Below are positions 5,061 to 19,872 of a stretch of 64,000 nucleotides of DNA, piece after piece. A program made the position numbers and the translations under genes. How positions within the stretch are numbered: the stretch's first letter is position 1; each line of letters starts with the position of its first letter. The stretch is from a phage. Location of the stretch: assembly GCA_036252695.1 (NCBI GenBank), contig GCA_036252695.1_4122.1. The stretch is one strand, 5' to 3'. The notes beneath the pieces were generated by a model, which saw only the letters and a program-made list of their open reading frames with translations, made no database searches and had not been told where the DNA came from.

Positions 5061-5068
5061 GGTAAATT

Positions 5069-5401
5069 ATGGATTTAAAGCCAATTGTGGTTAACAAATA
5101 CAAAGAACCGTATGATGTGTATATTGGACGTGGGTCTAAATGGGGAAACCCATTTACCCATATTAAAGATAAACAAACTAAAGCCGAATTCATTGTTAGT
5201 ACAAGAGAAGAATCAATTGAAAAATTCAGAGAATACATTATTGAACGTATTTCTTGTGGAGAAGTTAAGATTGATGAATTACTTGAACTCGCAGGGAAAC
5301 GCCTTGGTTGTTTCTGTAAACCAAAATCATGTCACGGCGATGTTCTTGTCGAAATAGTGAGTGCAATATTAGATGAATTACCAGACGATAATGAAGGATG
5401 A
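5069..5401 (+). CDS. DUF4326-family protein
   Basis: Motifs YIGRGSKWGNPF and CFCKPKSCHGDVL characteristic of DUF4326; sits between nrdD and nrdG. Confidence 0.6.
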   Translation: MDLKPIVVNKYKEPYDVYIGRGSKWGNPFTHIKDKQTKAEFIVSTREESIEKFREYIIERISCGEVKIDELLELAGKRLGCFCKPKSCHGDVLVEIVSAILDELPDDNEG

Positions 5402-5843
5402 TTTAGTAAATGGAGAGGGCGTTCGCTGCTCTTTATTTGTTAGTGGGTGTTCGCACGGATGTGATGGTTGCTTCAATGAAGAAGCATGGGACTACCGAAG
5501 TGGACAAGAGTTCAGTACTGAAACAGTTGAGATTATACTACAGGAACTAAAAAAACCATATGTTAGTGGTTTGTCACTTCTAGGCGGCGATCCATTAATG
5601 AAAAAGAATATAGATGAAGTTTTAAATCTATGCAAAGTAGTTAAAGAAACTTATCCTAGTAAAACTATTTGGTGCTGGAGTGGGTATACTTTAGATGAGA
5701 TTATGAAAAATCATGCTAAAGATATACTTCAGTACTTAGATGTATTAGTTGATGGTAAGTTTATCGAGTCCGAAAAGAATTTAAAATTACCTTTCCGTGG
5801 TTCAAATAATCAAAGAATACTATATAAAAATAAAGATTTTTAA
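5373..5843 (+). CDS. nrdG: anaerobic RNR activating protein (radical SAM)
   Basis: CxxxCxxC cluster (GCSHGCDGC) and end-to-end similarity to T4 NrdG (FVNGxG, GGDPL, RGSNNQR). Confidence 0.85.
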   Translation: MNYQTIMKDDLVNGEGVRCSLFVSGCSHGCDGCFNEEAWDYRSGQEFSTETVEIILQELKKPYVSGLSLLGGDPLMKKNIDEVLNLCKVVKETYPSKTIWCWSGYTLDEIMKNHAKDILQYLDVLVDGKFIESEKNLKLPFRGSNNQRILYKNKDF

Positions 5844-5919: not shown

Positions 5920-8616
5920 ATGTCAAAGAAAATATATGGTGGCTTGGATGTCACACATAATGTGACAGTTAATGGTAAAAGAACAATACAAGGTATCAAT
6001 GATCAAGTATTTGATGCTAATGGCAATATGGAGCTAGATACTTATTCAAGAGATGAAGTACTAGATATCGTCAGTATGATGCCAATTTCCCATTATGGGT
6101 CACAAAACTATCTTCCTGCTGGTGTATCTGGTGATTTCAATGGTGCATCTGAAAACCAGTCCCAACGTAGAAATAAAATTTTATTAGAAAACGATGGTAC
6201 ACTCGTATTATTACGTAGTGGTACAAACGGTAGTGTTGAGGGATTATATTATTCATATTTGGCTAACGCATTATCAGTTGATGACATGAGCCGTACAATT
6301 AACACCAGTCGTCAATACAAGCCTGGTTTTTTCGGTTCAAATCGCGTCGCAATTGGCTTATACAATACTGATCCAAATATTTTACTCGGTAGATATGTAG
6401 ACACTTCTAACAGTACTAATGGATTGTTTATTTCTATTACTAATGGTACATTAGATGATAAATTACATACTGGTTTTTTTGTAAATCAAGCAGATATTTG
6501 CCCTGAAGGTGGTATAGAATTTGCAATGATGGCTGAAGATGGTTCAATCTATGTCTTTAGTGTTCTTAATGAAAATAACCAACTACAGTTAGTTGTTGTC
6601 CGAGTTGTATATAATATTAGCAATGGAACATATACGGCAACTCGTATTACAGGATGGACTACAAAAACATTCTATAATACAACTTATTCTGCACAGAATA
6701 ACATGGTTATTACTAATCAAGTAACTTCAACTAATATAGCAGATAAGCCTTATGTGTATGTACCACAAAACCTACGTGGTATTGGGATTTATATGACATC
6801 CATTGATTTGTATGTTGCACAGCAACCAGGAACACAGAACTTTCGTTTTAGAATGAATGGTGATGCATGGTTTACAATGGCGACATATAATGCCCGACCA
6901 CAACATAGCTACAGCTTTGCATTTAATATGAGTACTAAACAATGCACCCTAGACGCTGGGAATGACATAGGTTCATATCAAGCACCATTGGTTATAACCA
7001 ATACTGGTTCTGCATTAGTGCCTACAGGTAACGTTTTAAATAATGATCCATTATATAATCATGCTAATGCAAGAAACATTTATAGTTCTTATTTTTACTT
7101 AAGTTCAGGTGAAGCTTTTTGTACTGTGTGTCCAAACTTAGCAGAACCATTACTTATGCAAAAAGCAAAGTTTCCTATACAAATTGTTTATAGTATGATT
7201 AACGTTCGTGCAGTACAATCAACTGATTTTAAAGGTGGAGTTGTTAGACCATCCTTTGGTTCAGCAGTTGGTTCATTTATTAATGGTGTGGAGTTGTTAC
7301 CAGATAATAGTACTAAACAATATTCACGTGCGTCTGGTAGTGGTGGGTTTAGACCATCATATGCAGTTCATAAAAGTACTCCTAATTTTACATTTAAATC
7401 ATTATCTTTAGGAACCATACAAGGTTATGAACCTACAACTGAACGTGGTTATGTAGATGATAATGCCAATAATAGAATTTTCATTAGTAGTATTTCAGGT
7501 TCAACTGTAACAACTAATGGCGGTATTTTTATGGTTGGTCAACGTTATTCACAATCATTTTCATATGATAAAAACTTAAATGGTACTGGTGTTATTAGTG
7601 TTACACAATCAGTTCTAGATAACTTTAGAAATACAGAATATGCTAAAGTTCTAAGTGACTGGAACTTATCTTCACAAGCTTATCGTGATATGACATTATT
7701 TGTTCCACAACAAACTGACATTCCGGCTTTTGTTATGTTGAGTACTATAACAAATGACTATAAAAACTATATTAGAATTGCTGAAGTTAACGTTAATACT
7801 AGAGTTGGAAATATAACATCTATTACCTTTAAGCGTTTAGTACTAGAAAATACATATGGTGAAAACTTTACACCTAATGGTAATGGTTCGATTGCATCTT
7901 CTTCTGTTGGGTTAACAATTTATGATGGTGGTTCATTCTACTTCATTGGTGGTTCTGACCCATTAACACATCCAACAATAGGAAATACAGCAACTCATCA
8001 ATTTAGAGCATATGTAACTAAATCAACTGCACAATTTACAAGTTTTGTTATTACTGGTTCTCATGCCAGTTATGAACAAGGAAGACAACCCACTGCGTTG
8101 CCTGGTATTGGATTTGGTATTTTTGATCCACTGGATTATACAAATAAAATGTCATTTCAAAAATATGGAACAACGATAGCCGACTATAATAACTGGACTC
8201 CACAAGGTAGCCCAATTAACGTAGTATCACAAGACGTTGCTCAAGGGTTTATTGTTTATTTTACAGAGGAAACACCAGTTATACTATCAGGTAAGTCTTT
8301 TACACTACCAGTTTCAAATATTGATTTGAGAACTATAAAATCTAATCCAGCAAATACAACATTTTATGTATATGTTAAATTAGAACAAGGGTTGGCAAAC
8401 TACTACATAACTACTGATGTTATTTCCGAAACAGGAACAACTGCATATAATATTTTTTGGATAGGTACTATTCAAACTAACGCAATTCAAATCGAAACTA
8501 TTAATATACAAAAACGTTCACGTTTAGATATATTTGGTGCTTCACTTGAATCAGCAGGTTCATCGTTCCCAGTTAGCTACGGTCTACCATCACAAACAGG
8601 AACCATAAACTGGTAA
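5920..8616 (+). CDS. tail fibre protein (paralogue A, 898 aa)
   Basis: Large Ser/Thr/Gly/Asn-rich ORF behind a late promoter; N- and C-terminal modules shared with 9232..11961. Confidence 0.7.
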   Translation: MSKKIYGGLDVTHNVTVNGKRTIQGINDQVFDANGNMELDTYSRDEVLDIVSMMPISHYGSQNYLPAGVSGDFNGASENQSQRRNKILLENDGTLVLLRSGTNGSVEGLYYSYLANALSVDDMSRTINTSRQYKPGFFGSNRVAIGLYNTDPNILLGRYVDTSNSTNGLFISITNGTLDDKLHTGFFVNQADICPEGGIEFAMMAEDGSIYVFSVLNENNQLQLVVVRVVYNISNGTYTATRITGWTTKTFYNTTYSAQNNMVITNQVTSTNIADKPYVYVPQNLRGIGIYMTSIDLYVAQQPGTQNFRFRMNGDAWFTMATYNARPQHSYSFAFNMSTKQCTLDAGNDIGSYQAPLVITNTGSALVPTGNVLNNDPLYNHANARNIYSSYFYLSSGEAFCTVCPNLAEPLLMQKAKFPIQIVYSMINVRAVQSTDFKGGVVRPSFGSAVGSFINGVELLPDNSTKQYSRASGSGGFRPSYAVHKSTPNFTFKSLSLGTIQGYEPTTERGYVDDNANNRIFISSISGSTVTTNGGIFMVGQRYSQSFSYDKNLNGTGVISVTQSVLDNFRNTEYAKVLSDWNLSSQAYRDMTLFVPQQTDIPAFVMLSTITNDYKNYIRIAEVNVNTRVGNITSITFKRLVLENTYGENFTPNGNGSIASSSVGLTIYDGGSFYFIGGSDPLTHPTIGNTATHQFRAYVTKSTAQFTSFVITGSHASYEQGRQPTALPGIGFGIFDPLDYTNKMSFQKYGTTIADYNNWTPQGSPINVVSQDVAQGFIVYFTEETPVILSGKSFTLPVSNIDLRTIKSNPANTTFYVYVKLEQGLANYYITTDVISETGTTAYNIFWIGTIQTNAIQIETINIQKRSRLDIFGASLESAGSSFPVSYGLPSQTGTINW

Positions 8617-8627
8617 AGGATTACATA

Positions 8628-9215
8628 ATGGCATTTAAAATAAGAGCAGACCTTAAGGCAATGCAACAAGTTACAGTACAGGGTAAAAGTACTGGACTTG
8701 GTGTATTAGGTAATAATATGACTTATTACCCAACAAATTCAAATGGGGAATGTACATTCCCCTCTATTACCAAAGATGAAGTTAACTTTATTGTCAATGG
8801 ATTACCACTTACACAATACGGAGAATTGTATGATGACGCTAGTCTAAATATTACTTCATCAGGCTATAGTCTTACATTTAATAGACAGATACCATCATTT
8901 ATTGGTGGTTATCTTTATAAATTTCCAGCAGTTTCTATTTTTGCTTCAACTGTTTCATCTGGAACACAAACACAATATGTATATGCAACGTTAGTTCTCG
9001 GTGAACCAATTTATAAAATATCACCAACACAAATACAAGAATCTGAAATTATAATGTTTATTGGAACACTGACCGTTGGTACAAGTGGTATTACAAATAT
9101 AAACATTAATAAAGTATCCAGATTTAGTACATATAGACCTAGTGTTACACAAAAAGGTTCTTCATTCCCAGTCAGTACTGGAAAACCATCAGAAACTGGT
9201 ACAATTGGTTGGTAA
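8628..9215 (+). CDS. short tail-fibre-related protein sharing the fibre C-terminal module
   Basis: 195 aa; C-terminus ...GSSFPVSTGKPSETGTIGW matches the C-termini of both large fibres. Confidence 0.5.
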   Translation: MAFKIRADLKAMQQVTVQGKSTGLGVLGNNMTYYPTNSNGECTFPSITKDEVNFIVNGLPLTQYGELYDDASLNITSSGYSLTFNRQIPSFIGGYLYKFPAVSIFASTVSSGTQTQYVYATLVLGEPIYKISPTQIQESEIIMFIGTLTVGTSGITNININKVSRFSTYRPSVTQKGSSFPVSTGKPSETGTIGW

Positions 9216-9231
9216 ATTAAGGAAAAGAAAG

Positions 9232-11961
9232 ATGTCATCAAAACGAATTATAGGAAGTGCCGAGATCCTTGGGAACTTGGCAATTGGACAAAGGTACGCT
9301 ATGCGTACTTTTAATGGAACCTCACCGAATGCCAATACTGGAATTGTTCAATATCCAATATATAAGCGTTCAGAAGTTCAAAGTATTTTAGATATGTTGC
9401 CTATATCACGTGTAGGAGAAATGGATTACTTGCCATTAAACGTAAGTGGGTCGTATGAAGGTGCTACACCTATGTCAAGTGACCAAGTAGTTCAGCCAAC
9501 AATTATTGAAGATGATGGAACCGCCGTTGTTCTGCGTAGCGGAACCAATGGTAGTACTAAAGGTTTTTATTATTCATTTATACGAGAAATCAGAAATATA
9601 ACCATGATTTCACAAGAAAGTGTTATTTCAACCAATTCAATGTATAAACCTTCAATTATGAGTAGTACAGAGAATATTAAGTATTTTATTGGCTCTAATG
9701 GTTATGAAATGCTTGGATGTTTAAGTACAGAAGATAATTATATTTTTACTATAACTAATGGTACATTCAACGAAGTATCACATATTCATGCTAAAGTACC
9801 AAGTACTTCTTTTGGTAATGATATGCCTATATATACTCATATTGTTGGAACAAAAGTATATATTTGGTGTAAAGATAAAAGTGTTTCTAATTTAGGATTA
9901 GCACTTTCAATTTATACAGTAGAGCTAAGTGATGTGAAAGCAAGCTCAATGGCATCATTAACAAAAGTTACTGGATTATCAGGGCAAACTGTTCGAAATA
10001 CAAGTTATTCTGCATCTAATAACATAAGAGTGTTTGATAGATTATATAGTGTTGGTACTAGCTCGGATTCATTATTCGAAGTTACATCACCAGTCTCACG
10101 TGTAGAATTTTCGGATTATACAGACTTTAATATACAAGCAAACGTTAGTACTGATTTATCCAAAATACGTGTAACTTTATACCCAACCCATAGAATGGTT
10201 ACACCTTTATATATTTCAACAGTGTATGGTACTGGTATCAGTTTTGTTTATAATATAAACTCAAAATCTATGTCACTAGATGGTTCTGCTCGTGCTCCTG
10301 CTACAGTTTCATATGATAATGGATTTCAAGTTTCTAACCCATTTGAAATCAATATGGTCAACTTTACTGGGACAACTGCTGCTGGTGTATTAGGAAACGC
10401 AGGTGGTTTATGTCAAACCAAAGATGGTTTAGTATTTGCATCTAAATTTAGATGGAGTTCAACTGAATTTTATGGTCTACAACGATATAAGGTTAGTGGT
10501 ACACCGTTTGATTCATGGGTTGCTAGTACTAGATCCGCAAGTAACGTTATAAATGCAAACGTTTTACCAGTTTTTGGTAGTGCTGTTGGTGCAAACCTAT
10601 TAGGTGTACGTTTCATCGATAATAGAAAAATATTATTAGCATGTTCTGGTACGTATGATGATGTAACATATAATTATAATAATACTGTTTTTTCTGAAAT
10701 AGGCTCACAACCAACATATCAATATAACTCAGTTCAAAATAATACTACATTAAATGGTTTTGCACCACAATCTAATCGTAAACAAATAGGTGATGATTTT
10801 ACATACACTGCTATGATTTCTCTTGTTGATACCGATGGTAGTGTTAGATGTTATGGAACATCATTCATTGAAGGTGTATATAAAACAAGTGGTGGATTAT
10901 TAAACCCAGATACTTTAGAATTTGATGAAACATATACAATAGAACCAACGGTATTAGAATCATTAAAACAAGATATTTTTGCTAATCTAGGAAACTCTGG
11001 CATTGTTGGTACACTATCTGGACAAATTGTATTATATTATGTACCTGATAATACTTTTTCTAAATCCATTGCAGTAGTTTCAGCATATAATCTTAACAAT
11101 AACCAAGGTTATGCAATCTATGCCGAAGTTGATGTTGTATTATCTGGATCTAACATAACTTCAGCTACATTGGTAAGTACTAGATATGAGACACTTAGTT
11201 CTGTTACAGGAATTATTACTGAAGCATATATGAAACGTTGTACTGGTCTAACAGTTGCTAAATATTCAGGATTTGGTTATATTGGTGTTGATGCAGTTCA
11301 TCAATTTTCACAACCAGGTAATGCACAATTTAAGATGATGATAGCTAAAACAGTAAATGGTGTCATAACATCAAATCGTTTTTTATCATCTAGTTACATC
11401 CAACTCGGTGCAGCATATCAACATGGTGTTATTCCTGGTGTTGGTTTTGGATATTACAATTTTCAAGATTCTGACTATCAAACCAAATCTGTATTCAGCG
11501 TTTTTGGTACAACATCTGCTGAAATGGATGGTTTAATTAGCGGAAATGGTAGCGTTAAAGAAAAGATTGTGGTAGTATCACAAGACGTTGCACAAGGATT
11601 CTCAGTGTACTTTACACGTGAAGTTCCGGTATTTTTAGGTGGAATTTTCGACAGACTACCTATACAAAGTGTAGATTTAAGTACTGTAAAAAATAATCCA
11701 GCTAATACTACGTTCTATTTGTATATACAAATGAACAGGAATACTAAGAAAGCTTCATATGTTATTAGTACTGAAACTATTGATGAATCTTTAACTAGCA
11801 CTTACATTGGTAAGATAGTTACTGGAACTTCAGGAATTACTTCGATTGATACTGAAAAAGTGACTCGTTTTTTGACATATCGCCCAAGTACAACGAAACG
11901 TGGTTCAGCGATACCTGCCAGTACTGGTGTACCGTCTGGGTCAGGCACACGTTGGAAATAA
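9232..11961 (+). CDS. tail fibre protein (paralogue B)
   Basis: ORF track 9142..11961; ATG at 9232 with AAGGAAAAG RBS avoids overlap. N-terminus (LPISxxG..YLP, LRSGTNGS) and C-terminus paralogous to 5920..8616. Confidence 0.7.
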   Translation: MSSKRIIGSAEILGNLAIGQRYAMRTFNGTSPNANTGIVQYPIYKRSEVQSILDMLPISRVGEMDYLPLNVSGSYEGATPMSSDQVVQPTIIEDDGTAVVLRSGTNGSTKGFYYSFIREIRNITMISQESVISTNSMYKPSIMSSTENIKYFIGSNGYEMLGCLSTEDNYIFTITNGTFNEVSHIHAKVPSTSFGNDMPIYTHIVGTKVYIWCKDKSVSNLGLALSIYTVELSDVKASSMASLTKVTGLSGQTVRNTSYSASNNIRVFDRLYSVGTSSDSLFEVTSPVSRVEFSDYTDFNIQANVSTDLSKIRVTLYPTHRMVTPLYISTVYGTGISFVYNINSKSMSLDGSARAPATVSYDNGFQVSNPFEINMVNFTGTTAAGVLGNAGGLCQTKDGLVFASKFRWSSTEFYGLQRYKVSGTPFDSWVASTRSASNVINANVLPVFGSAVGANLLGVRFIDNRKILLACSGTYDDVTYNYNNTVFSEIGSQPTYQYNSVQNNTTLNGFAPQSNRKQIGDDFTYTAMISLVDTDGSVRCYGTSFIEGVYKTSGGLLNPDTLEFDETYTIEPTVLESLKQDIFANLGNSGIVGTLSGQIVLYYVPDNTFSKSIAVVSAYNLNNNQGYAIYAEVDVVLSGSNITSATLVSTRYETLSSVTGIITEAYMKRCTGLTVAKYSGFGYIGVDAVHQFSQPGNAQFKMMIAKTVNGVITSNRFLSSSYIQLGAAYQHGVIPGVGFGYYNFQDSDYQTKSVFSVFGTTSAEMDGLISGNGSVKEKIVVVSQDVAQGFSVYFTREVPVFLGGIFDRLPIQSVDLSTVKNNPANTTFYLYIQMNRNTKKASYVISTETIDESLTSTYIGKIVTGTSGITSIDTEKVTRFLTYRPSTTKRGSAIPASTGVPSGSGTRWK

Positions 11962-11967
11962 TTTTAA

Positions 11968-11996
11968 AGCTCGTCTATTGACGGGCTTTTCTTTTA
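11968..11996 (+). terminator. rho-independent terminator
   Basis: AAGCTCGTC / ACGGGCTT hairpin followed by a T-run. Confidence 0.45.
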
Positions 11997-12028
11997 TGTG
12001 TATAATTGAATAAAAATAGGAGGAAATT

Positions 12029-12595
12029 ATGGTTAAATCTTTGCTACCACCACCAAAACGTCATAAAATCAAAGAAATGAAAGAACAACGTACATTAAAG
12101 ATGTACAACAATTTAGTTCAGTTACTGTGTAAAAGTCCATCGCTCAAAGCAGAGTTTAAAACTGATGATGACCGCAAAGCACTAATTGAGATGAAGTATA
12201 TGCTCAGTAAAATGTCCTTTTACAAATTTGTAAAAGAATACACAACTGACCCATTTAGTCCTCGTTGGAGATCCAAACCAAGAGAGTATTTTTACGGTGG
12301 TTCATATACGGATCGCATTCAAGACACAGTGATGGGAGTTGAATTTGAAATCGATTATGAGCCGAATGGTGTGGAAAGCTGGCCGATTGAGAAACGTTTA
12401 CCAAGTGAAGAAGAAATTTATGTTTATGCAAGAAAACTTTCAAATTTCAGTTCAAGAATTACTCTAGGCAATTTAGATTCATTTATTATTTTCTATACAC
12501 GTGTTGGTGTAGATAAAATGGTAACTAAACTCAATGAACTTTCATTACAACAAAAACAGATTAATGCATACAAAGACATTACTGATTTATACTAA
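12029..12595 (+). CDS. hypothetical protein, tandem paralogue family member 1
   Basis: GGAGG RBS; shares motif (D/N)D(D/N)R(K/R).(L/I)(I/L)..KY.LSK with the next two genes. Confidence 0.5.
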   Translation: MVKSLLPPPKRHKIKEMKEQRTLKMYNNLVQLLCKSPSLKAEFKTDDDRKALIEMKYMLSKMSFYKFVKEYTTDPFSPRWRSKPREYFYGGSYTDRIQDTVMGVEFEIDYEPNGVESWPIEKRLPSEEEIYVYARKLSNFSSRITLGNLDSFIIFYTRVGVDKMVTKLNELSLQQKQINAYKDITDLY

Positions 12596-12601
12596 TGAGG
12601 A

Positions 12602-13123
12602 ATGGATATGTTTTTTGGATCAGTTGGAAAACAAAACAGTACTTTAATTTGGCATGAAATTATCTTTAAAATTATATCTAAAAGCTACTCACTAAAGGAT
12701 ATTATTACCACAGATAATGATAGACGTATCCTGTTAGATGCAAAATATAAATTGAGCAAACACCCTTTACTTTCTTTAATCATTGATTACGTTTGTGATT
12801 ATGAATCTAGTCGTTGGAAGTGGGAAGACGGCGGTTTATTTCGTGGAAAAACATTCTACGGTGCGGAACGATATGTTTTCAGTGATACATCAAATGGCGT
12901 TAAGTTTGTTATTAGAAACTTTAACTCCAAAGAAAATGATTATCTTGAAAGTGGAGTGAAAGTATATATCGATAATAATAGCAATGTACTAACATATGAC
13001 GAATCACTAATTATGTTACAAATAATGCGTGGTGTTGAAGGTGTAAGAAACAACCTTACTAAATTGAAAATCCAGCAAAATGATATACATAATAGACAGA
13101 AAATTAAGGGTTTATATAAATGA
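12602..13123 (+). CDS. hypothetical protein, tandem paralogue family member 2
   Basis: Paralogue of 12029..12595. Confidence 0.5.
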   Translation: MDMFFGSVGKQNSTLIWHEIIFKIISKSYSLKDIITTDNDRRILLDAKYKLSKHPLLSLIIDYVCDYESSRWKWEDGGLFRGKTFYGAERYVFSDTSNGVKFVIRNFNSKENDYLESGVKVYIDNNSNVLTYDESLIMLQIMRGVEGVRNNLTKLKIQQNDIHNRQKIKGLYK

Positions 13124-13629
13124 TTTCATTTTTCAAAAAGAAACAAAAAGTTGATGAAACCGGATTAGAATCGTTTCTATGGACTCTTATCATCAAAAAA
13201 AGTCCATTGATAAAAGAATATGCTATCAATGATGCTAATAGAAAAACTATCATTGAATACAAATATGAATTATCTAAATGTGATCCAATTGTTTATCACT
13301 TTGCGAAGTACTGTTCAAAAAATTTATCGGATATCACAATCTACCACGAGTCAGTCCCAATGAGTTTTCCTTATGGTGATTGGGTAGATACTTTTGATAT
13401 TTTTGATGGGTCAAATGGTTTCAGTTTCTTTTACTCGTCAAATAAAGCAAGTGTTCGTATTAAAACAGACATAGGTTGGACAAAGCATAGCTCAAATAAA
13501 GAAGATTATAATTTATTAGCTGACGTATACCGAAGTGTGAAGAATTCAAAGGATATTGATGAAAGAATTAAAAAGCAAAATCGTATATCTTTATCACTTG
13601 AAACATACAAGTCAAAGTATGGTGGTTAA
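13120..13629 (+). CDS. hypothetical protein, tandem paralogue family member 3
   Basis: Paralogue of the two preceding genes; ATGA start-stop overlap. Confidence 0.5.
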   Translation: MISFFKKKQKVDETGLESFLWTLIIKKSPLIKEYAINDANRKTIIEYKYELSKCDPIVYHFAKYCSKNLSDITIYHESVPMSFPYGDWVDTFDIFDGSNGFSFFYSSNKASVRIKTDIGWTKHSSNKEDYNLLADVYRSVKNSKDIDERIKKQNRISLSLETYKSKYGG

Positions 13630-13631
13630 CT

Positions 13632-14033
13632 ATGACTACAGTTGATGATATCTATAGCACTATACGCAATATGAGTACAGATAGAAAAGTATTTGGCGAT
13701 AAAGAAAAATCTAAGTGTTATGGTATTGATTCTTTTGATATAATTTCTTATGAGTACAATACAAGTGGAAATAGTTCACTGAATATCGTCTGTCCTCGTG
13801 ATCCAGAAAATAATTTTATGTATGTTGAAATTAATAATGATGGAATGTTTTTTACAAAAGTTTTCAAAGGTGGAATTAATTACGAACCTATTGAATGTAT
13901 GAATGAAGAAACTTTCTTTCAAGAAGATACAATTATCAATTTAGGTTTTAGTTTTGATGATTATAAAACATTAGAACATGACTTTAATCGTTATTATAAT
14001 GGTTTCTTAAAGGAGTTAACAATTTATCTATGA
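13632..14033 (+). CDS. hypothetical protein
   Basis: 133-aa ORF; stop overlaps start of next gene. Confidence 0.5.
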   Translation: MTTVDDIYSTIRNMSTDRKVFGDKEKSKCYGIDSFDIISYEYNTSGNSSLNIVCPRDPENNFMYVEINNDGMFFTKVFKGGINYEPIECMNEETFFQEDTIINLGFSFDDYKTLEHDFNRYYNGFLKELTIYL

Positions 14034-16306
14034 ATAACCAATATATTGAACAAACAATAGTGAAACACTTGGCTGGGTCACAAGCCTACGGAACCAGTAC
14101 ACCTGAAAGTGATACTGATTATCGTGGTATTTTTCTTGCTAATAAAGAATTTATTCTTACACCCTTCTATAAGGTCAAAGAGGTAGCTGATAAAAGCGAA
14201 GAAGATACTAAATTCTATGAGTTGAATCAGTATTTAAAATTATACACTGAAGCTAACCCTAATATTCTTGAATCACTTTGGGTTGAACCTGAACACATTG
14301 TTGAAAGTACTGAAATTTATGACTATCTTCGTTCATTTAACCAAAAACTTCTTAGTTCCAAGATTGCATTTTCATATACTGGTTATGCATATAATCAGAT
14401 TAAGCGTATGACAAATCATCACGGTTGGATGGATAAAGAGCATATTGCTGAACGTAAACTAAATGAAATTTTAGAAGAACATCCAGTCGATGAGGTTCTT
14501 GCGTGGATGTATGATTCATTTCCACAATATCTTGTTGAACGTTTAGATACATCGAACTTACATCCATTTAATGCTAAAAAGATTGATTTTGAAAAATATA
14601 TGCGTGATACGTCATTGCAGTTAGTTTCGAAAAATCCATTAAAGCAATATCATTTTGTAAGATTAGTGCATAACTACACTACTGATAAAATTCTAGATCG
14701 TGATTTCAATTTATTGAATTTTAATAATGGCTATGAACTAATTCATTACGGAGAAAACATTTTTGCGATTATTAAAAATCCGAATGAAAGTACTATCAAT
14801 GCTGATGGTTCACTACGTTACTTCAATAAAGAACGTACTTCGGAAGAATTAAAAGTTCGTCCTGAACTCATTGTAAAATTCAATGAAAAGGAATACAAAG
14901 AAAATAGTGAGAACCGTAAGAGTTATCACAAATGGAAGCAGAACCGTAATGCCAAACGTGCTATTCTTGAATCACACCACGGTTATGACTGTTATAGTTT
15001 TGATACTGAATTCTTAACTAAAGATGGTTGGAAGTTATTTGATGATATTACTGAAAACGATCTATTAGCTACTTTTGACAAAAATCACAAAGTTGAATAT
15101 CAGAAATACACTGAACGTTTTGATAATTTATATAATGGCAATCTATACCATTTCACTGGTCATCACCAAGATACTTTAGTGACTGCTAACCACCGAATGT
15201 ATGTTAAGGATTATGCACGAAATCAACAAAAAGATATGTCTGATTGGAAATTTGTAGAAGCAGCACAATTAAAAGAAACATATAAAATTTTGAATACAAT
15301 ATCCCCAATAACTAAAGAACACAAAGATAAAAAAAGTCCAATTGACTACATGGATATCAAAGTTTATCTTCAACTCATGGGATGGTTTATTTCAGATGGG
15401 TGCATAAATTTCAGGGATGGTAAAGTAAAATCTTTATATATTTCCCAGTCAAAAACTAGTCAAGGTATGCGTTGTGCTTTATCAAAATACAAAAAATCTG
15501 GTCAATTAATGTTTAATGAATACATTATAGAAAAGAAAGATTATCAAGCTAATGACGAATCAAGATATACATTCCCAAGTGAAGTAGCTGAAGCATTATA
15601 TAATGATTGTGGACATGGTTCATATAATAAACGAATTCCAAATTGGGTATTTGATTTAACAAAACGTAAAATGGATTTCCTTCTGAAAGGTTTGTTACAA
15701 GGGGATGGAACAAAACGAAATTTAGTTAATGACAATGATACATTTGTATATTATACTGCCAATTCATTATTAGCTGATGATGTTCAAAAACTAGCATTAC
15801 TATGTGGTTATGAAACATCAAAATGGGGACCATACACAAACGAAACCAATTTTGGTAGTGTTGATATATATCAAATTCATATCAATATGAAACCCAAAAC
15901 CGAAAAAATGAACATGAAACAAAATCTTGAAAAAATTCCAGTTACTAATTACAGAACTGTGTGTTTTTCTGTTCCCAACGGAACACTCATTACTCGTAGA
16001 AATGGAAAAACCGCATTACATGGAAATTGCAAACATGCTATGCATACAATCAGGCTGCTGAATACAGCCGAGGAAGCACTTGAAACTGGTATCATCCAAG
16101 TTCACCGACCGGATGCTGCTATGTTGATGGACATTCGTAACGGGAAGTGGTTGTATCAAGAAGTTATGGATTATTTCAACGAAAAGGTTGACTACATCCG
16201 AAATGTGGCGTATCATAAAACTCATCTACCGAAGCGACCGAACATAAAGTTGGCGACAAAGGTACTATTAGATATCCGTGAAATGCAATGGTACAGTAAA
16301 AAATAA
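14030..16306 (+). CDS. Pol-beta superfamily nucleotidyltransferase interrupted by an in-frame intein
   Basis: N-terminal GS...G....SDxD motif (GSQAYGTSTPESDTDYRGIF); residues 321-666 carry intein blocks and LAGLIDADG motifs; flanking extein reads GYD|CKHAMH. Confidence 0.7.
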   Translation: MNNQYIEQTIVKHLAGSQAYGTSTPESDTDYRGIFLANKEFILTPFYKVKEVADKSEEDTKFYELNQYLKLYTEANPNILESLWVEPEHIVESTEIYDYLRSFNQKLLSSKIAFSYTGYAYNQIKRMTNHHGWMDKEHIAERKLNEILEEHPVDEVLAWMYDSFPQYLVERLDTSNLHPFNAKKIDFEKYMRDTSLQLVSKNPLKQYHFVRLVHNYTTDKILDRDFNLLNFNNGYELIHYGENIFAIIKNPNESTINADGSLRYFNKERTSEELKVRPELIVKFNEKEYKENSENRKSYHKWKQNRNAKRAILESHHGYDCYSFDTEFLTKDGWKLFDDITENDLLATFDKNHKVEYQKYTERFDNLYNGNLYHFTGHHQDTLVTANHRMYVKDYARNQQKDMSDWKFVEAAQLKETYKILNTISPITKEHKDKKSPIDYMDIKVYLQLMGWFISDGCINFRDGKVKSLYISQSKTSQGMRCALSKYKKSGQLMFNEYIIEKKDYQANDESRYTFPSEVAEALYNDCGHGSYNKRIPNWVFDLTKRKMDFLLKGLLQGDGTKRNLVNDNDTFVYYTANSLLADDVQKLALLCGYETSKWGPYTNETNFGSVDIYQIHINMKPKTEKMNMKQNLEKIPVTNYRTVCFSVPNGTLITRRNGKTALHGNCKHAMHTIRLLNTAEEALETGIIQVHRPDAAMLMDIRNGKWLYQEVMDYFNEKVDYIRNVAYHKTHLPKRPNIKLATKVLLDIREMQWYSKK
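14990..16027 (+). mobile_element. intein with LAGLIDADG homing-endonuclease domain (346 aa, in-frame)
   Basis: Starts with Cys (CYSFDTEFLTKDGWK, block A), TxxH block B (DTLVTANH), two LAGLIDADG-like motifs (LMGWFISDG, LKGLLQGDG), ends ...ALHGN followed by extein Cys. Confidence 0.6.
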
Positions 16307-16316
16307 GAGGATTGTT

Positions 16317-16736
16317 ATGCTAAACGAACAAATCAAAGACGCACTACGTGTACTGAATCTCGAAGTTAACCGCATCCAGAAAAGTACTGACCGTTATAAA
16401 GTAATGCATGAAATCAAACAAGAATTGGAATCTATTAATAAGGGAGAGTGGTGGTATCTTCAGCCCGAATATCAAACTCGTGAATTAAACGATGTTGAAA
16501 AAGAAATTGTCAAATTCATCACTACTCGTTATTGTGATACATCAGAGAATGATGTATCAGCGAACTTCAATCTTACTAAATTGGAAGTCGAAGAAAAATT
16601 CCATTTTGATTGGCTTGATTGGATTGAAATGGTAATGGAACTAGAAGAAAAATTCAATGTTGAAGTTGATGAAAAGTTCGAGAATAATGAAACTAAGCTG
16701 TATGAACTAGTAGAACATATTCAAAAAATGTTGTAA
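16317..16736 (+). CDS. hypothetical protein
   Basis: ORF track 16278..16736; ATG at 16317 with AGAGG RBS lies downstream of the upstream stop. Confidence 0.5.
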   Translation: MLNEQIKDALRVLNLEVNRIQKSTDRYKVMHEIKQELESINKGEWWYLQPEYQTRELNDVEKEIVKFITTRYCDTSENDVSANFNLTKLEVEEKFHFDWLDWIEMVMELEEKFNVEVDEKFENNETKLYELVEHIQKML

Positions 16737-16789
16737 AACTATACAATTGTATACTCTAAATAATATCATCAACTATAGGAGATATTATT

Positions 16790-17164
16790 ATGAGTATGTT
16801 AGAAATAATTGTTTCAAAAATTCTTATTCCATTTTGGAAACCAATTTCTTTTGTATTATTAATTGGCGGTTCAGCTTATGCTGGTTGGGAAGCTAATACT
16901 TATTACAGTGGATATCAACAAAGCATAGAGCAACAAATAGCTAAAAAAGTTGATACCGCCTTGGATAAAATGCAACAAGAAAATGCAAAAAATTACCTTG
17001 AAACTAAAAAAATCATGGAAGATAATGCTAAAGTTATTGAAACAAAGGTTCCTTTTATTGTAGAACGTGAAGTTTATAAGAATGTATGTTTAGATGAAGA
17101 TGGTGTAAAAGTACTAAATGAACTAAAACAAAATTCTCAAGCAGCGAGGAATAAATTCAAATGA
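16790..17164 (+). CDS. i-spanin (Rz-like inner-membrane spanin component)
   Basis: N-terminal TM helix followed by charged coiled-coil-like periplasmic region; overlaps the lipoprotein gene by ATGA. Confidence 0.5.
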   Translation: MSMLEIIVSKILIPFWKPISFVLLIGGSAYAGWEANTYYSGYQQSIEQQIAKKVDTALDKMQQENAKNYLETKKIMEDNAKVIETKVPFIVEREVYKNVCLDEDGVKVLNELKQNSQAARNKFK

Positions 17165-17469
17165 AAAAATTATTAGTTCCAATGATTTCTTTTTTAATTA
17201 TAAGTGGGTGTGCCGAGCAAGTAAAACTACAATCCCCCGCACCAATTAAACAAGAAATTCTGTTAGAAAGATGTGATGATGATACACCTCTACCACAAAA
17301 AATTATGATTGACAAAAATGGTTTTAAAGGTTATGATGGTGCAGAAATTCTTAAAGTACTTACTCGTTGGGATGCAGTATACAATGAATGTGCTTTAAAA
17401 CATGACGCATTGATTAAAACTATTCGTGATTTACAAGGTAAAGATATTAAAATCAATATCAAGGAATAA
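17161..17469 (+). CDS. o-spanin (Rz1-like outer-membrane lipoprotein)
   Basis: Signal peptide with lipobox (LIISGC); small periplasmic protein directly after the i-spanin. Confidence 0.55.
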   Translation: MKKLLVPMISFLIISGCAEQVKLQSPAPIKQEILLERCDDDTPLPQKIMIDKNGFKGYDGAEILKVLTRWDAVYNECALKHDALIKTIRDLQGKDIKINIKE

Positions 17470-17470
17470 A

Positions 17471-18082
17471 ATGAACAAATATCATGTTTACTATACGACT
17501 AAATTATCACTTCTTGAAGAATTAAATCAACGAAGTACTAAGATGAAACGCTACACTTTAAATGGAATTACTTTTAGGTATTTCCCACAAAAAGTTCTTA
17601 CATTTATTAAGAATCCAAAATGCGTGGCATGTGGGATTGAAGCCACTGAAGTACGCATTGAACGTTCATTTTGTTCTGATCCAGTATATGGTAAACCACA
17701 TTTAAATATATATGCTGTATGTGGTCTTTATGAAGTGTTGATGACAGTTGATCATAATCATCTGGCATCTAAGGGTGGACCTGATTTAGAGTCAAACTTT
17801 AATACTATGTGCTCCAGATGTAATCAACTACGTTCGAATAAAACTGAAACAGTTGATGAGTTTCTTGAGAAAGTTAAAGGTCGTAATCTTCTCCAAGAAC
17901 ATATGAATAATTTCTTTAATGTACAAAAAAAGAAAAATAACATTGACAAGTCGAAACTACTAGAAGAACGTAGGTTACGTCAAGAATTATGGGAAACTGA
18001 TCATCTATGGCATGTTCGAGAGTTTGGTCGTCATATGAAAGCTTTGAAAAAAGAACAAAAGAAATTGAATAAACATGATTGA
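17471..18082 (+). CDS. free-standing HNH endonuclease
   Basis: Cys pairs plus DHNHLASKGGPD...NFNTMCSRCN (HNH motif); ORF track 17426..18082 but ATG at 17471 follows AAGGAA RBS. Confidence 0.6.
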   Translation: MNKYHVYYTTKLSLLEELNQRSTKMKRYTLNGITFRYFPQKVLTFIKNPKCVACGIEATEVRIERSFCSDPVYGKPHLNIYAVCGLYEVLMTVDHNHLASKGGPDLESNFNTMCSRCNQLRSNKTETVDEFLEKVKGRNLLQEHMNNFFNVQKKKNNIDKSKLLEERRLRQELWETDHLWHVREFGRHMKALKKEQKKLNKHD

Positions 18083-18095
18083 TATGATATTATAG

Positions 18096-18123
18096 GGACT
18101 TGAGTATTCAAGTCCTTTTTTTT
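18096..18123 (+). terminator. rho-independent terminator
   Basis: GGACTTGA / TCAAGTCC hairpin plus T8. Confidence 0.5.
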
Positions 18124-18134
18124 GGAGAAAATAT

Positions 18135-18407
18135 ATGAAAACTAAATTATTTCCACAACAAATAATGATTGAACTGTGCGAACATCAGTCTGGTGAAGTT
18201 GTTACAATCAGTGGTGATACGTATTCCATCATTTTAAATGAACAACAATTTGATCATACAAATCATACGAATGAACTGTATAATCTTATGTTTATGGACG
18301 ATAAGAGTGAAAAATACTATCATTGTACATATGAACGATGTATAGATACAACACCATTTTGTAATGAAATGGTTGGTGTTAAATGTTATGAATGTGAAGT
18401 GTTATGA
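18135..18407 (+). CDS. hypothetical Cys-rich protein, paralogue pair member 1
   Basis: Shares MKTK.F.PQ..M.ELCEH..G.VVTISG ... KYYHCTYER ... GVKCYE with 18428..18784. Confidence 0.5.
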   Translation: MKTKLFPQQIMIELCEHQSGEVVTISGDTYSIILNEQQFDHTNHTNELYNLMFMDDKSEKYYHCTYERCIDTTPFCNEMVGVKCYECEVL

Positions 18408-18427
18408 AGTTTTTTAGGTAAAAATAT

Positions 18428-18784
18428 ATGAAAACAAAAATCTTTCTACCACAAACCATGATGGAACTGTGTGAACATGATGCAGGAGATGTTGTCACTA
18501 TTAGTGGTTCCTGGAATGAGAGTACTGAAGACTTTATGCCAGATGAGGTATATTCTGTTGTTTTAAATGAACAGTACAATACAAGCCGTTGGAATGAACA
18601 GTACAATCTAGTTTTTCTTGACAATAACAATGAAAAGTACTATCATTGTACGTATGAACGAGGTCTGACAGAACGTAACTACACAACTCCTTTCTGTGAT
18701 GAAATGGATGGTGTAAAGTGCTATGAAGTTTCTGTTCGTCAGGTTCCAGTTGTTACTTACAAAACCGAGTGGGATTATCTGTAA
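18428..18784 (+). CDS. hypothetical Cys-rich protein, paralogue pair member 2
   Basis: Tandem paralogue of 18135..18407. Confidence 0.5.
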   Translation: MKTKIFLPQTMMELCEHDAGDVVTISGSWNESTEDFMPDEVYSVVLNEQYNTSRWNEQYNLVFLDNNNEKYYHCTYERGLTERNYTTPFCDEMDGVKCYEVSVRQVPVVTYKTEWDYL

Positions 18785-19182
18785 TGCTTAAAGATTTAGA
18801 TTTTTCAAATTTAGAGATCATCAGTGCAGTGAAGAATATTACTGATATGGATGATGAAAAAGGTGTAATGGTAACTATCACTTTCGTAAAGGAAGAGGAT
18901 AGCTATAAGCATCTTACTGGAATTGAAGAACTAATTCATAAAACCAATCTTGAGAATGATGGTAAACTCATCAAGCTTCAGGCTTCATATACGCAAAAAA
19001 CGTCAAATTTTATAGACCTAAATAATGTAGTCAAGGTGGTATACAATCATCCTGATCACACATATAGGAACACGACAAGAAATGAAAATGTTGCTAACGA
19101 TTCGAATATTATCGAAGATGTTGAATTCATAAACACAATTTTTGATCGTTGTTCTAAGGATTTAAAAAAAGTATACATGTAA
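18784..19182 (+). CDS. hypothetical protein
   Basis: ORF track 18769 (GTG); ATG at 18784 overlaps upstream stop (TAATG). Confidence 0.45.
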   Translation: MLKDLDFSNLEIISAVKNITDMDDEKGVMVTITFVKEEDSYKHLTGIEELIHKTNLENDGKLIKLQASYTQKTSNFIDLNNVVKVVYNHPDHTYRNTTRNENVANDSNIIEDVEFINTIFDRCSKDLKKVYM

Positions 19183-19183
19183 T

Positions 19184-19211
19184 GGGACATTATATGTTCC
19201 AATGATATAAT
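19184..19211 (+). promoter_or_regulatory. sigma70-like promoter (GGGACA-N16-TATAAT with TG extension)
   Basis: -35-like GGGACA at 19184-19189, 16-nt spacer, TGATATAAT at 19203-19211; same architecture recurs at 29933 and 48945. Confidence 0.4.
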
Positions 19212-19214
19212 GTA

Positions 19215-19735
19215 TATAGAAAATGACAACGGACATTGAAAAATGGACACTGAGAACCTACTTCTCTTGAAAATGTAAAGGATAGATGAGCTTTACCGTT
19301 GTAGCGAACAGCAGAAGAAACCTGTTAGAGTACTGGCATTTAAACAAACACGATGTAAGACCACGAATCACGGCGACACGGCTGTATAAAGAACTCCGAT
19401 AAGCATACAGAGAGTTCCTAGATAGATGTATAAGGTTCGCACCTTACCAGATTTGCTAAGGGAGTTTAAGAATAGCGGACGCAATTTTACAAGAAAGTTG
19501 CGTCCAAAATTTGAGAACAGGTACTTACTTTGATCGAATAGAGTTAGTACTGAGTGCTGTTGATGAAAAGACCAGCGACCGTTGCATATGACTGCGATAG
19601 AGAGAAACCGAGCAACCCGCTTTCGCTCTCTAAATTTTGGTACAAGAAAGATCCGTCCAAAATTTGAGAAATTCGCAATTCGATAATATCCGATGCCATC
19701 ATCGTCAAGAGAGACTTAATTGTCTCTTTTTTATT
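19215..19735 (+). ncRNA. candidate structured non-coding RNA (function unknown)
   Basis: About 0.5 kb between promoter and terminator with no ORF of 60 aa or more, higher G+C than neighbours, two near-identical 29-nt direct repeats (19488-19516 and 19641-19669) each forming a hairpin. Confidence 0.3.
19709..19733 (+). terminator. rho-independent terminator
   Basis: GAGAGAC / GTCTCT hairpin (loop TTAATT) plus T6. Confidence 0.5.
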
Positions 19736-19872
19736 ACCTTCATTCCCCTGCGGGGGGATGTAATAGTCCTCAACAAATCCCGTCAAGTTTTTAAAGTACA
19801 TTATCATTTTCAGAAGGAACTAGTTTACGAAGTAAACGCAGTGACTTCTTGAGTTACGAGAGAACGAAGTGA

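What the first reader, a model, noticed from the sequence alone, without database searches (positions are those of the whole stretch)
12029..13629. Triplicated paralogue family of unknown function upstream of the intein-bearing gene
Three consecutive ~170-190-aa genes share a core motif ((D/N)D.R(K/R).(L/I)(I/L)..KY.LSK) but are otherwise diverged. Tandem amplification with divergence in an accessory region is a pattern seen for host-takeover or counter-defence factors.
Basis: seen in the sequence. Interest (0 to 1): 0.4.

Follow-up and report, generated by a model that had tools for sequence, protein, structure and literature searches.

The report
Jumbo-phage paralogue trio upstream of RlaP
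Three adjacent small genes in a 121Q-like jumbo coliphage are old, diverged copies of one phage-only protein family with no known fold or function, sharing an apparent operon with an RNA-repair enzyme; this is a modest lead, not a surprise.

The parts
11966..11999 (+). Intrinsic-terminator-like hairpin (AAAGCTCGTC-TATT-GACGGGCTTT) plus T-run, ending the upstream virion-gene transcript
   Evidence: The same hairpin plus T-run occurs at the equivalent gap in 13 lineages, with different stem sequences but preserved pairing.
11978..12006 (+). Sigma70-type promoter TTGACG-17-TATAAT (11/12), with its -35 element embedded in the terminator loop and 3' arm
   Evidence: It is one of only 5 TTGAC-N17-19-TAWAAT matches in 64 kb, against 1.15 expected. 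The -35 and -10 are conserved in JNE01, the Klebsiella phages, GAP32, Eneladusvirus, PHA46 and metagenomic relatives at 10-12/12.
12018..12023 (+). Shine-Dalgarno AGGAGG, 5 nt before the ATG of A
   Evidence: Read directly from the sequence.
12029..12595 (+). Paralogue A (188 aa; 121Q gp502 and phAPEC6 gp321c orthologue; phrog_18641)
12602..13123 (+). Paralogue B (173 aa, or 171 aa from the ATG at 12608; 121Q gp503; phrog_18641). This is the protein that was modelled.
13120..13629 (+). Paralogue C (169 aa; 121Q gp504; phrog_7868). Its start overlaps the stop of B (ATGA).
13632..14033 (+). 133-aa gene of unknown function (phrog_22376), conserved between the family and RlaP across the clade. It is not a family member.
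   Evidence: (hhalign negative).
14030..16306 (+). RlaP-family (PF10127) nucleotidyltransferase, interrupted by a 348-aa LAGLIDADG intein (nt 14990-16033). Its start overlaps the g133 stop (ATGA).
9142..11961 (+). Context: upstream ~900-aa virion-type protein (phrog_3573; 121Q gp501), paralogous in its C-terminal part to ORFs 5920-8616 and 8628-9215
   Evidence: The phAPEC6 virion proteome lists a 98.6-kDa gp323c in this block.

Best explanation
A, B and C are three ancient, non-redundant members of a small-protein family restricted to Rak2-like jumbo phages. The proteins are about 170 aa and mostly basic. The predicted fold is an N-terminal four-helix unit carrying the K-S...D..R..KY..SK signature, a four-stranded beta-sheet, and a 40-residue C-terminal helix ending in an almost invariant Tyr. 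They are intracellular, non-virion proteins. They are transcribed from a host-type sigma70 promoter as the first genes of a tightly packed unit that continues through a 133-aa gene into the RlaP RNA 3'-end-repair nucleotidyltransferase. The most likely role is as accessory components (RNA-binding, substrate-selecting or partner-binding subunits) of the phage's RNA/tRNA end-repair and counter-defence module. The different paralogues would serve different substrates or partners. Shown here: homology, phyletic distribution, orthology, gene packing, the promoter/terminator architecture, absence from one published virion proteome, and a confident fold with no known relative. Inferred: co-transcription, early timing, and any involvement in RNA repair or any RNA binding.
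For: Homology and family definition.
Orthologue groups and old duplications.
Gene junctions: 6 nt (A-B), a 4-nt overlap (B-C), 2 nt (C-g133) and a 4-nt overlap (g133-RlaP), with no terminator-like site predicted inside the unit.
Transcript boundary: a terminator with an embedded 10-12/12 sigma70 promoter lies immediately upstream in 13 lineages.
Neighbourhood: RlaP lies 1-6 genes downstream in every locus long enough to show it. In GAP32 and Eneladusvirus, and in L008, L009 and L010, family members flank Thg1 and DUF4326. In L010 the large structural genes are absent while an HD+kinase gene and Thg1 are present.
Function of neighbours: RlaP adds 1-2 NMPs to damaged RNA 3' ends (PMC12776372). 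RlaP and Thg1 are read as anti-tRNA-nuclease repair in jumbo phages (PMC7824862).
Non-structural: not among the 62 phAPEC6 virion proteins, although the flanking gp314c, gp315c and gp323c are.
Site and charge: eleven polar positions are conserved at >=78% in a family with ~20% identity, and the alpha3 residues lie on one helical face. 28 of 40 members have pI above 8.5.
Against: All of the neighbourhood evidence comes from one syntenic phage clade, so the linkage to RlaP and Thg1 may be inherited gene order rather than functional coupling. XaC1 has Thg1, DUF4326 and RlaP but no detectable family member, and KLEP7 and 4MG have RlaP without it. The family is therefore not a general or obligatory RlaP/Thg1 partner. 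No RNA-binding or enzymatic fold was recognised. Spanin genes follow in the same orientation with no predicted terminator up to 17.5 kb, so 'early operon' is not established. No expression data were found.
Confidence: 0.35

Rival explanations
1. Generic host-takeover or counter-defence effectors unrelated to RNA repair. Each paralogue would bind and neutralise a different host protein, and the position next to RlaP would be historical accident.
For: The family is phage-only with no cellular homologues among 1.84 billion representatives. It has a host-type promoter. It diverges about 2-fold faster than its neighbours. Copy number ranges from 0 to 4. It is not in virions.
Against: Gene-wide dN/dS is 0.10-0.33, so there is no positive-selection signal. 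Orthologue groups are stable over deep divergence. Eleven conserved polar residues point to one conserved ligand or partner rather than shifting host targets. There is no PADLOC-related or other hit to guide a target.
Confidence: 0.25
2. Enzymes of an unrecognised fold acting on nucleic acids or nucleotides, for example end-healing or base/backbone modification. They would work alongside the DUF4326, methyltransferase, Thg1 and RlaP genes with which they are interleaved.
For: Near-invariant K27, S28, D38, R41, K48, Y49, S52, K53, D95, an acidic residue at 134 and Y172 resemble a catalytic or phosphate-binding constellation. The family is interleaved with enzymes in GAP32 and Eneladusvirus. The confident model has no PDB relative.
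Against: No similarity to any enzyme family was found. Multiple diverged paralogues per genome are more typical of binding or adaptor proteins. The small helix-sheet-helix domain has no obvious cleft information available here, because model coordinates could not be inspected.
Confidence: 0.15
3. Assembly chaperones or accessory factors for the large fibre-like virion proteins encoded immediately upstream, analogous in position to tail-fibre assembly genes.
For: The first family member directly follows the ~920-aa virion-type gene in nearly all loci. Chaperones are also expected to be absent from virions.
Against: A conserved terminator and a fresh sigma70 promoter separate them from the fibre-like gene in 13 lineages. 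In L010 the family member lies next to NrdG and Thg1 with no large structural gene. XaC1 keeps a homologous-size structural protein but has no family member. Members are interleaved with Thg1, DUF4326 and a methyltransferase. There is no similarity to known chaperone families.
Confidence: 0.1
4. Chance similarity or non-coding ORFs: there is no real gene family.
For: Pairwise similarity of C to A and B is weak, at 1e-4 over 30-40 residues.
Against: A-B scores 9e-15. Full-length profile matches, 49 representative clusters, conserved synteny and purifying selection all support real genes. The AlphaFold model has pLDDT 90.4.
Confidence: 0.01

Closest known systems
PHROGs families phrog_18641 and phrog_7868 (both 'unknown function')
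   Same: A and B are full-length members of phrog_18641 (E 7e-79 and 5e-85) and C of phrog_7868 (3e-56). The genes are therefore already catalogued as hypothetical proteins in dozens of genomes.
   Different: PHROGs splits them into two families. Cross-hits, one HMM and one alignment show they form a single family with A-, B- and C-type subgroups. No function is attached to either PHROG.
RlaP/Thg1-centred phage RNA-repair gene neighbourhoods (Burroughs and Aravind concept; jumbo-phage survey PMC7824862; RlaP biochemistry PMC12776372)
   Same: The family shares a tightly packed unit with RlaP, and in other genera with Thg1 and DUF4326.
   Different: The family itself has never been described as a component. 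It is absent from RlaP/Thg1 loci outside the enterobacterial Rak2-like clade. No RNA-related domain is detectable in it.
XRCC4/PAXX/SAS-6 'head plus long helical stalk' scaffold superfamily
Tail-fibre assembly chaperone genes that follow fibre genes (lambda Tfa, Mu U', T4 gp38; from general knowledge)
   Same: Small genes lying immediately downstream of large fibre-like virion genes, with products absent from virions.
   Different: They are separated from the fibre-like gene by a conserved terminator and promoter. They show no homology to such chaperones. Their linkage to the fibre gene is broken in L010.

Membership tests
phrog_18641 / phrog_7868 (uncharacterised phage protein families) | Full-length, highly significant match to the family HMM | tested here: met
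   A scores 7.2e-79 and B 4.9e-85 against phrog_18641. C scores 3e-56 against phrog_7868. Reciprocal cross-hits range from 6e-5 to 3e-11.
Single A/B/C superfamily (defined here) | One profile recognises all copies over the full length, with a shared signature (K-S, D..R, KY..SK, beta-strand D, C-terminal Y) | tested here: met
   The A5 HMM scores every copy in 20 loci at 1e-9 to 1e-45. Conservation table.
RNA-repair module component (RlaP/Thg1-associated) | Conserved gene neighbourhood with RNA-repair enzymes | tested here: met
   The family lies 1-6 genes upstream of RlaP in all sufficiently long loci. It is adjacent to Thg1 in GAP32, Eneladusvirus, L008, L009 and L010. All of these loci belong to one syntenic clade.
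RNA-repair module component (RlaP/Thg1-associated) | Co-occurrence with RlaP/Thg1 independent of shared ancestry of the locus (other phage lineages) | tested here: not met
   XaC1 (RlaP+Thg1+DUF4326), KLEP7 and 4MG (RlaP) have no family member by hmmsearch or hhalign, with working positive and negative controls.
RNA-repair module component (RlaP/Thg1-associated) | Physical binding to RNA or to RlaP/Thg1, or an effect on repair activity | not testable with these tools
   This needs EMSA, pull-down or complex prediction.
Tail-fibre assembly chaperones | Co-transcription with the fibre gene and homology to a known chaperone family | tested here: not met
   A conserved terminator and new promoter lie between the fibre-like gene and A. 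There are no Pfam or PHROG chaperone hits.
Virion structural proteins | Detection in purified virions by mass spectrometry | tested here: not met
   phAPEC6 gp319c-321c are absent from the 62 virion proteins, while the flanking gp314c, gp315c and gp323c are present. RaK2 gp001 and gp002 are never named in the RaK2 proteome paper. This is negative evidence only.
Known defence-system proteins (PADLOC) and curated NCBIfam families | Significant HMM match | tested here: not met
   Only noise-level hits, E >= 0.014.
Known anti-defence protein families (Acr, Acb, Tad and similar) | Sequence or structure match to a curated anti-defence family | not tested

The most novel reading that the evidence does not exclude
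The family is a new fold of repair-scaffold or adaptor protein. Paralogues would form homo- or hetero-oligomers through the long C-terminal helix and recruit or direct RlaP (3'-end) and Thg1 (5'-end) repair enzymes to particular damaged tRNAs. That would amount to a modular, phage-encoded tRNA repair complex, functionally analogous to XRCC4-type scaffolds in DNA end joining, with copy number (1-4) tracking the range of host tRNA-targeting nucleases faced by each phage lineage.
Probability: 0.12. Interest if true: 0.6.

Novelty: new member of a known kind. Interest (0 to 1): 0.3.

Why it matters
Jumbo phages of the Rak2/121Q group devote most of their ~350 kb to genes of unknown function. Here two 'unknown' PHROGs collapse into one clade-defining family with a confident, apparently unmatched fold and a conserved polar site. 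The family has a fixed place at the head of a unit ending in an RNA-repair nucleotidyltransferase. If it does take part in RNA or tRNA repair or in countering tRNA-targeting defences, it would add a new component type to phage RNA-repair systems, and its 0-4 copy variation would offer a handle on substrate or defence specificity. If not, it remains one of many conserved hypothetical phage families. The conserved terminator-embedded promoter also marks transcription-unit boundaries in these genomes.

Tried and rejected
1. Sequence libraries gave nothing beyond the two unknown PHROGs: Pfam on single sequences and on all 40 members at E<=1, NCBIfam, PADLOC, and PDB sequence profiles.
3. The word-indexed protein searches (three used) returned only close relatives and no source names. 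The exhaustive profile search was what revealed the wider family.
4. The search for related loci with the 40-sequence alignment failed because no stretch was conserved enough. Contexts were obtained through exact-sequence contig look-ups and annotated phage records instead.
5. No extra paralogue is hidden in the window. g133 is not a family member, and the XaC1 proteins in equivalent positions are not members.
6. The literature search found no paper mentioning these proteins or PHROGs, and no Asteriusvirus transcriptome.
7. No tRNA genes or Rfam families lie near the cluster.
8. Recent tandem amplification was rejected on the tree and orthology. Positive selection at the whole-gene level was rejected.
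9. Model coordinates could not be inspected, so the spatial clustering of the conserved residues is inferred only from helical periodicity.

Full report
**Where we are.** The window is a 121Q/PBECO4-like jumbo coliphage (genus Asteriusvirus, Rak2-like group). Positions 11000-15000 are 97-98.6% identical to phages CRJP21 and 121Q. The three ORFs of the finding correspond to 121Q gp502-504 and phAPEC6 gp321c-319c, all annotated as hypothetical proteins.

**Observation.** The ORFs exist as described: A 12029-12595 (188 aa), B 12602-13123 (173 aa) and C 13120-13629 (169 aa). B more probably starts at the ATG at 12608, given the GAGG at 12597-12600 and the 121Q annotation.
- A and B are clearly homologous over their whole length (BLASTP E=9e-15, 29% identity).
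- C matches A and B only around the motif in pairwise comparison (9e-5 and 4e-4). Profiles extend this to full length: B hits C's PHROG (phrog_7868) at 3e-11 over residues 10-173, and one family HMM scores all three at 1e-38 to 1e-45.
- No further member is hidden in the window.
- The motif as written fits only A. Shifted by one register, D.(D/N)R(K/R).(L/I)(I/L)..KY.LSK, it fits exactly A, B and C and nothing else in the window.

**Extent of the family.** tblastn finds the family in all 121Q-like phages, in a second Asteriusvirus clade (JNE01, A4, Turkey5) and in the Klebsiella RaK2-like phages. An exhaustive profile search of 1.84 billion representative proteins gave only 49 clusters at E<=1e-3, 22 of them at E<=1e-10. 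All are single-domain, 150-200 aa, and match end to end. No source names any of them. Every contig that could be inspected carries the same Rak2-like backbone. BFVD adds the Yersinia phages fHe-Yen9-03 and -04.

Copy number by the family HMM:

| Lineage | Copies |
|---|---|
| Asteriusvirus, both clades | 3 |
| PHA46 / fENko-Kae01 | 3 |
| Alcyoneusvirus (RaK2 ORF001/002, Muenster, RCIP0023) | 2 |
| GAP32 (Mimasvirus) | 4 |
| Eneladusvirus (fHe-Yen9-04, pEa_SNUABM_44) | 4 |
| Metagenomic relatives | 1-3 |
| Xanthomonas phage XaC1 | 0 |

**History.** A neighbour-joining tree and shared indels pair A with JNE01 copy 1, B with copy 2, and C with copy 3, Muenster copy 2 and L012 copy 2. The C versus A/B duplication therefore predates the Asteriusvirus/Alcyoneusvirus split, and the A/B duplication predates the two Asteriusvirus clades. 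This is an old, stably retained set of non-redundant paralogues, not a recent amplification.
- Gene-wide dN/dS is 0.10-0.33, against 0.07-0.13 for the neighbours.
- Between the two Asteriusvirus clades A, B and C keep only 30-38% aa identity, whereas the flanking genes keep 61-65%. The family is constrained but evolves fast.

**Structure.**
- With 14 sequences, AlphaFold2 gave a mediocre model (pLDDT 68.5). With the 40-sequence alignment it gave a confident one (pLDDT 90.4, pTM 0.81).
- The model has helices at 17-25, 31-34, 38-52 and 57-65, strands at 72-74, 89-95, 100-106 and 119-123, and one long helix at 132-171.
- Pfam (including all 40 members at E<=1), NCBIfam, PADLOC and PDB sequence profiles are empty.
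- Conservation mapping shows K27, S28, D38, R41, K48, Y49, S52, K53, D95, an acidic residue at 134 and the C-terminal Y172 conserved at >=78% in a family averaging ~20% identity. The alpha3 residues lie on one helical face. This argues for a defined binding or catalytic site.
- 28 of 40 members have pI above 8.5.

**Genomic setting.**
- Upstream lie three partly paralogous virion-type genes (898, 195 and 939 aa). The phAPEC6 virion proteome contains flanking proteins gp314c, gp315c and gp323c, but not gp319c-321c. RaK2 gp001 and gp002 are likewise never named among its virion proteins.
- Between the 939-aa gene and A there is a terminator-like hairpin plus T-run (11966-11999). Its loop and 3' arm contain the -35 of a near-consensus sigma70 promoter (TTGACG-17-TATAAT, 11978-12006), followed by AGGAGG.
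- The same terminator-embedded promoter (10-12/12) occupies the equivalent gap in 13 lineages, with different stem sequences but preserved pairing.
- Downstream, the junctions are 6 nt (A-B), a 4-nt ATGA overlap (B-C), 2 nt (C-g133) and a 4-nt ATGA overlap (g133-RlaP). No terminator-like site is predicted within the unit.
- The last gene is an RlaP-family nucleotidyltransferase (PF10127, 9e-15). Here it is split by a 348-aa LAGLIDADG intein that 121Q lacks.

**Functional inference.** RlaP adds one or two NMPs to damaged RNA 3' ends and restores the function of over-trimmed tRNA (PMC12776372). In jumbo phages, RlaP, Thg1 and CCA-adding enzymes are read as countermeasures to host tRNA-cleaving defences (PMC7824862).
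- In GAP32 the order is: 917-aa gene, family, Thg1, family, DUF4326, family, family, methyltransferase, a small gene, RlaP. In Eneladusvirus and in L008, L009 and L010 a conserved ~85-aa gene also sits between the first family member and Thg1.
- In L010 a family member lies beside Thg1 and near an HD+kinase gene, without the large structural genes.
- The best-supported reading is therefore that these are non-structural accessory proteins of an RNA-end-repair or counter-defence unit.
- The caveats are serious. All of this evidence is synteny within one clade. XaC1 has RlaP, Thg1 and DUF4326 with no family member, and KLEP7 and 4MG have RlaP alone. No RNA-related fold is recognisable. Spanin genes follow without a predicted terminator. 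No expression data exist. I give this reading about 0.35.

**Rivals.**
- Generic host-takeover or counter-defence effectors: 0.25.
- Novel-fold enzymes: 0.15.
- Chaperones for the upstream fibre-like proteins: 0.10. This is weakened by the conserved terminator and promoter, by L010 and by XaC1.
- Chance similarity: excluded.

**Verdict.** The 'amplification' framing is wrong in its timing, and the counter-defence idea is neither shown nor excluded. The family is already catalogued as two function-less PHROGs. What is new here is the following:
- their unification into one family;
- the duplication history and the 0-4 copy-number distribution;
- a confident model with no known fold relative;
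- the conserved polar site;
- the conserved terminator-embedded promoter;
- the packing of the family with RlaP.

Interest is modest (0.3).

Noticed in passing
window 11966-12006 (and equivalent gaps in L002-L004, L006, L008, L012, L014, L016, L021-L024): A terminator hairpin whose loop and 3' arm carry the -35 TTGAC(A) of a near-consensus sigma70 promoter. It is conserved in 13 lineages with different stem sequences but kept pairing. GAP32 and Eneladusvirus have a second promoter copy in the same gap. It may be a general transcription-unit punctuation element in Rak2-like phages.
   Followed up: yes
window 14990-16033 (within gene 14030-16306): A 348-aa LAGLIDADG intein (starts with Cys, ends ...HGN followed by Cys) inserted between 'HGYD' and 'CKHAMH' of the RlaP nucleotidyltransferase. 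121Q, Ecwhy_1, JNE01 and the Klebsiella phages lack it. The C-extein is only 70% identical to 121Q versus 96% for the N-extein, and N-extein dS (0.30) is 6-30 times that of the upstream genes. This is consistent with co-conversion from a divergent donor during homing.
   Followed up: partly
window 12029-13629 versus L015 (Ecwhy_1) 4016-5616: Synonymous divergence of A, B and C between the window and the Ecwhy_1 subclade (dS 0.13-0.43) is far lower than in the flanking genes (about 1.0-1.5). This suggests the paralogue block was exchanged by recombination between subclades (a mosaic).
   Followed up: partly
window 5920-8616, 8628-9215, 9142-11961: The three upstream genes (898, 195 and 939 aa) share a homologous C-terminal region and are conserved across the clade. 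At least one ~98.6-kDa protein of this block (gp323c) is a phAPEC6 virion protein. They are annotated as tail fibre or minor tail proteins in Muenster and fHe-Yen9-04, and may be the hair-like fibres described for 121Q.
   Followed up: partly
window 5069-5401: A DUF4326 gene sits between NrdD and NrdG here. In GAP32, Eneladusvirus, PHA46, L006, L012 and L014 its homologue lies inside or just after the paralogue cluster, so it is a mobile piece of the same neighbourhood.
   Followed up: partly
L001 (121Q) 16341-19759 versus window ~16306 and L015 7255-7266: 121Q and phAPEC6 carry extra genes after RlaP (gp507, tail fibre gp508 and tail protein gp509; gp314c and gp315c are virion proteins). The window and Ecwhy_1 lack them, so there is a variable tail-fibre cassette directly downstream of the unit.
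   Followed up: no
L008 3879-4130, L009 152-421, L010 8485-8751, L021 4945-5211: A conserved ~85-aa protein of unknown function always lies between a family member and Thg1 in GAP32-like and Eneladusvirus-like genomes. It is absent from the window.
   Followed up: partly
window 28813-29925: A CCA-adding/poly(A) polymerase family tRNA nucleotidyltransferase (PF01743 and PF12627) lies ~15 kb downstream. It is a further tRNA-repair-type gene in the same genome. No tRNA genes occur in the window.
   Followed up: no
window 16278-16736: The ORF overlapping the end of the RlaP gene has weak acyl-carrier-protein-like matches (PF14573 at 0.0016; phrog_5934 at 1.7e-7). GAP32 and fHe-Yen9-04 annotate an acyl carrier protein at the equivalent position, just before the spanin genes.
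   Followed up: no
Proteins P0005, P0010, P0011, P0012 (Salmonella phages SD-1_S14 and SD-2_S15; Escherichia phage CMSTMSU): These are truncated or fused versions of A, B and C (114-163 aa; one B-C fusion) in records that are short, fragmented or flagged as unverified. They are probably frameshift or assembly errors rather than biology.
   Followed up: no
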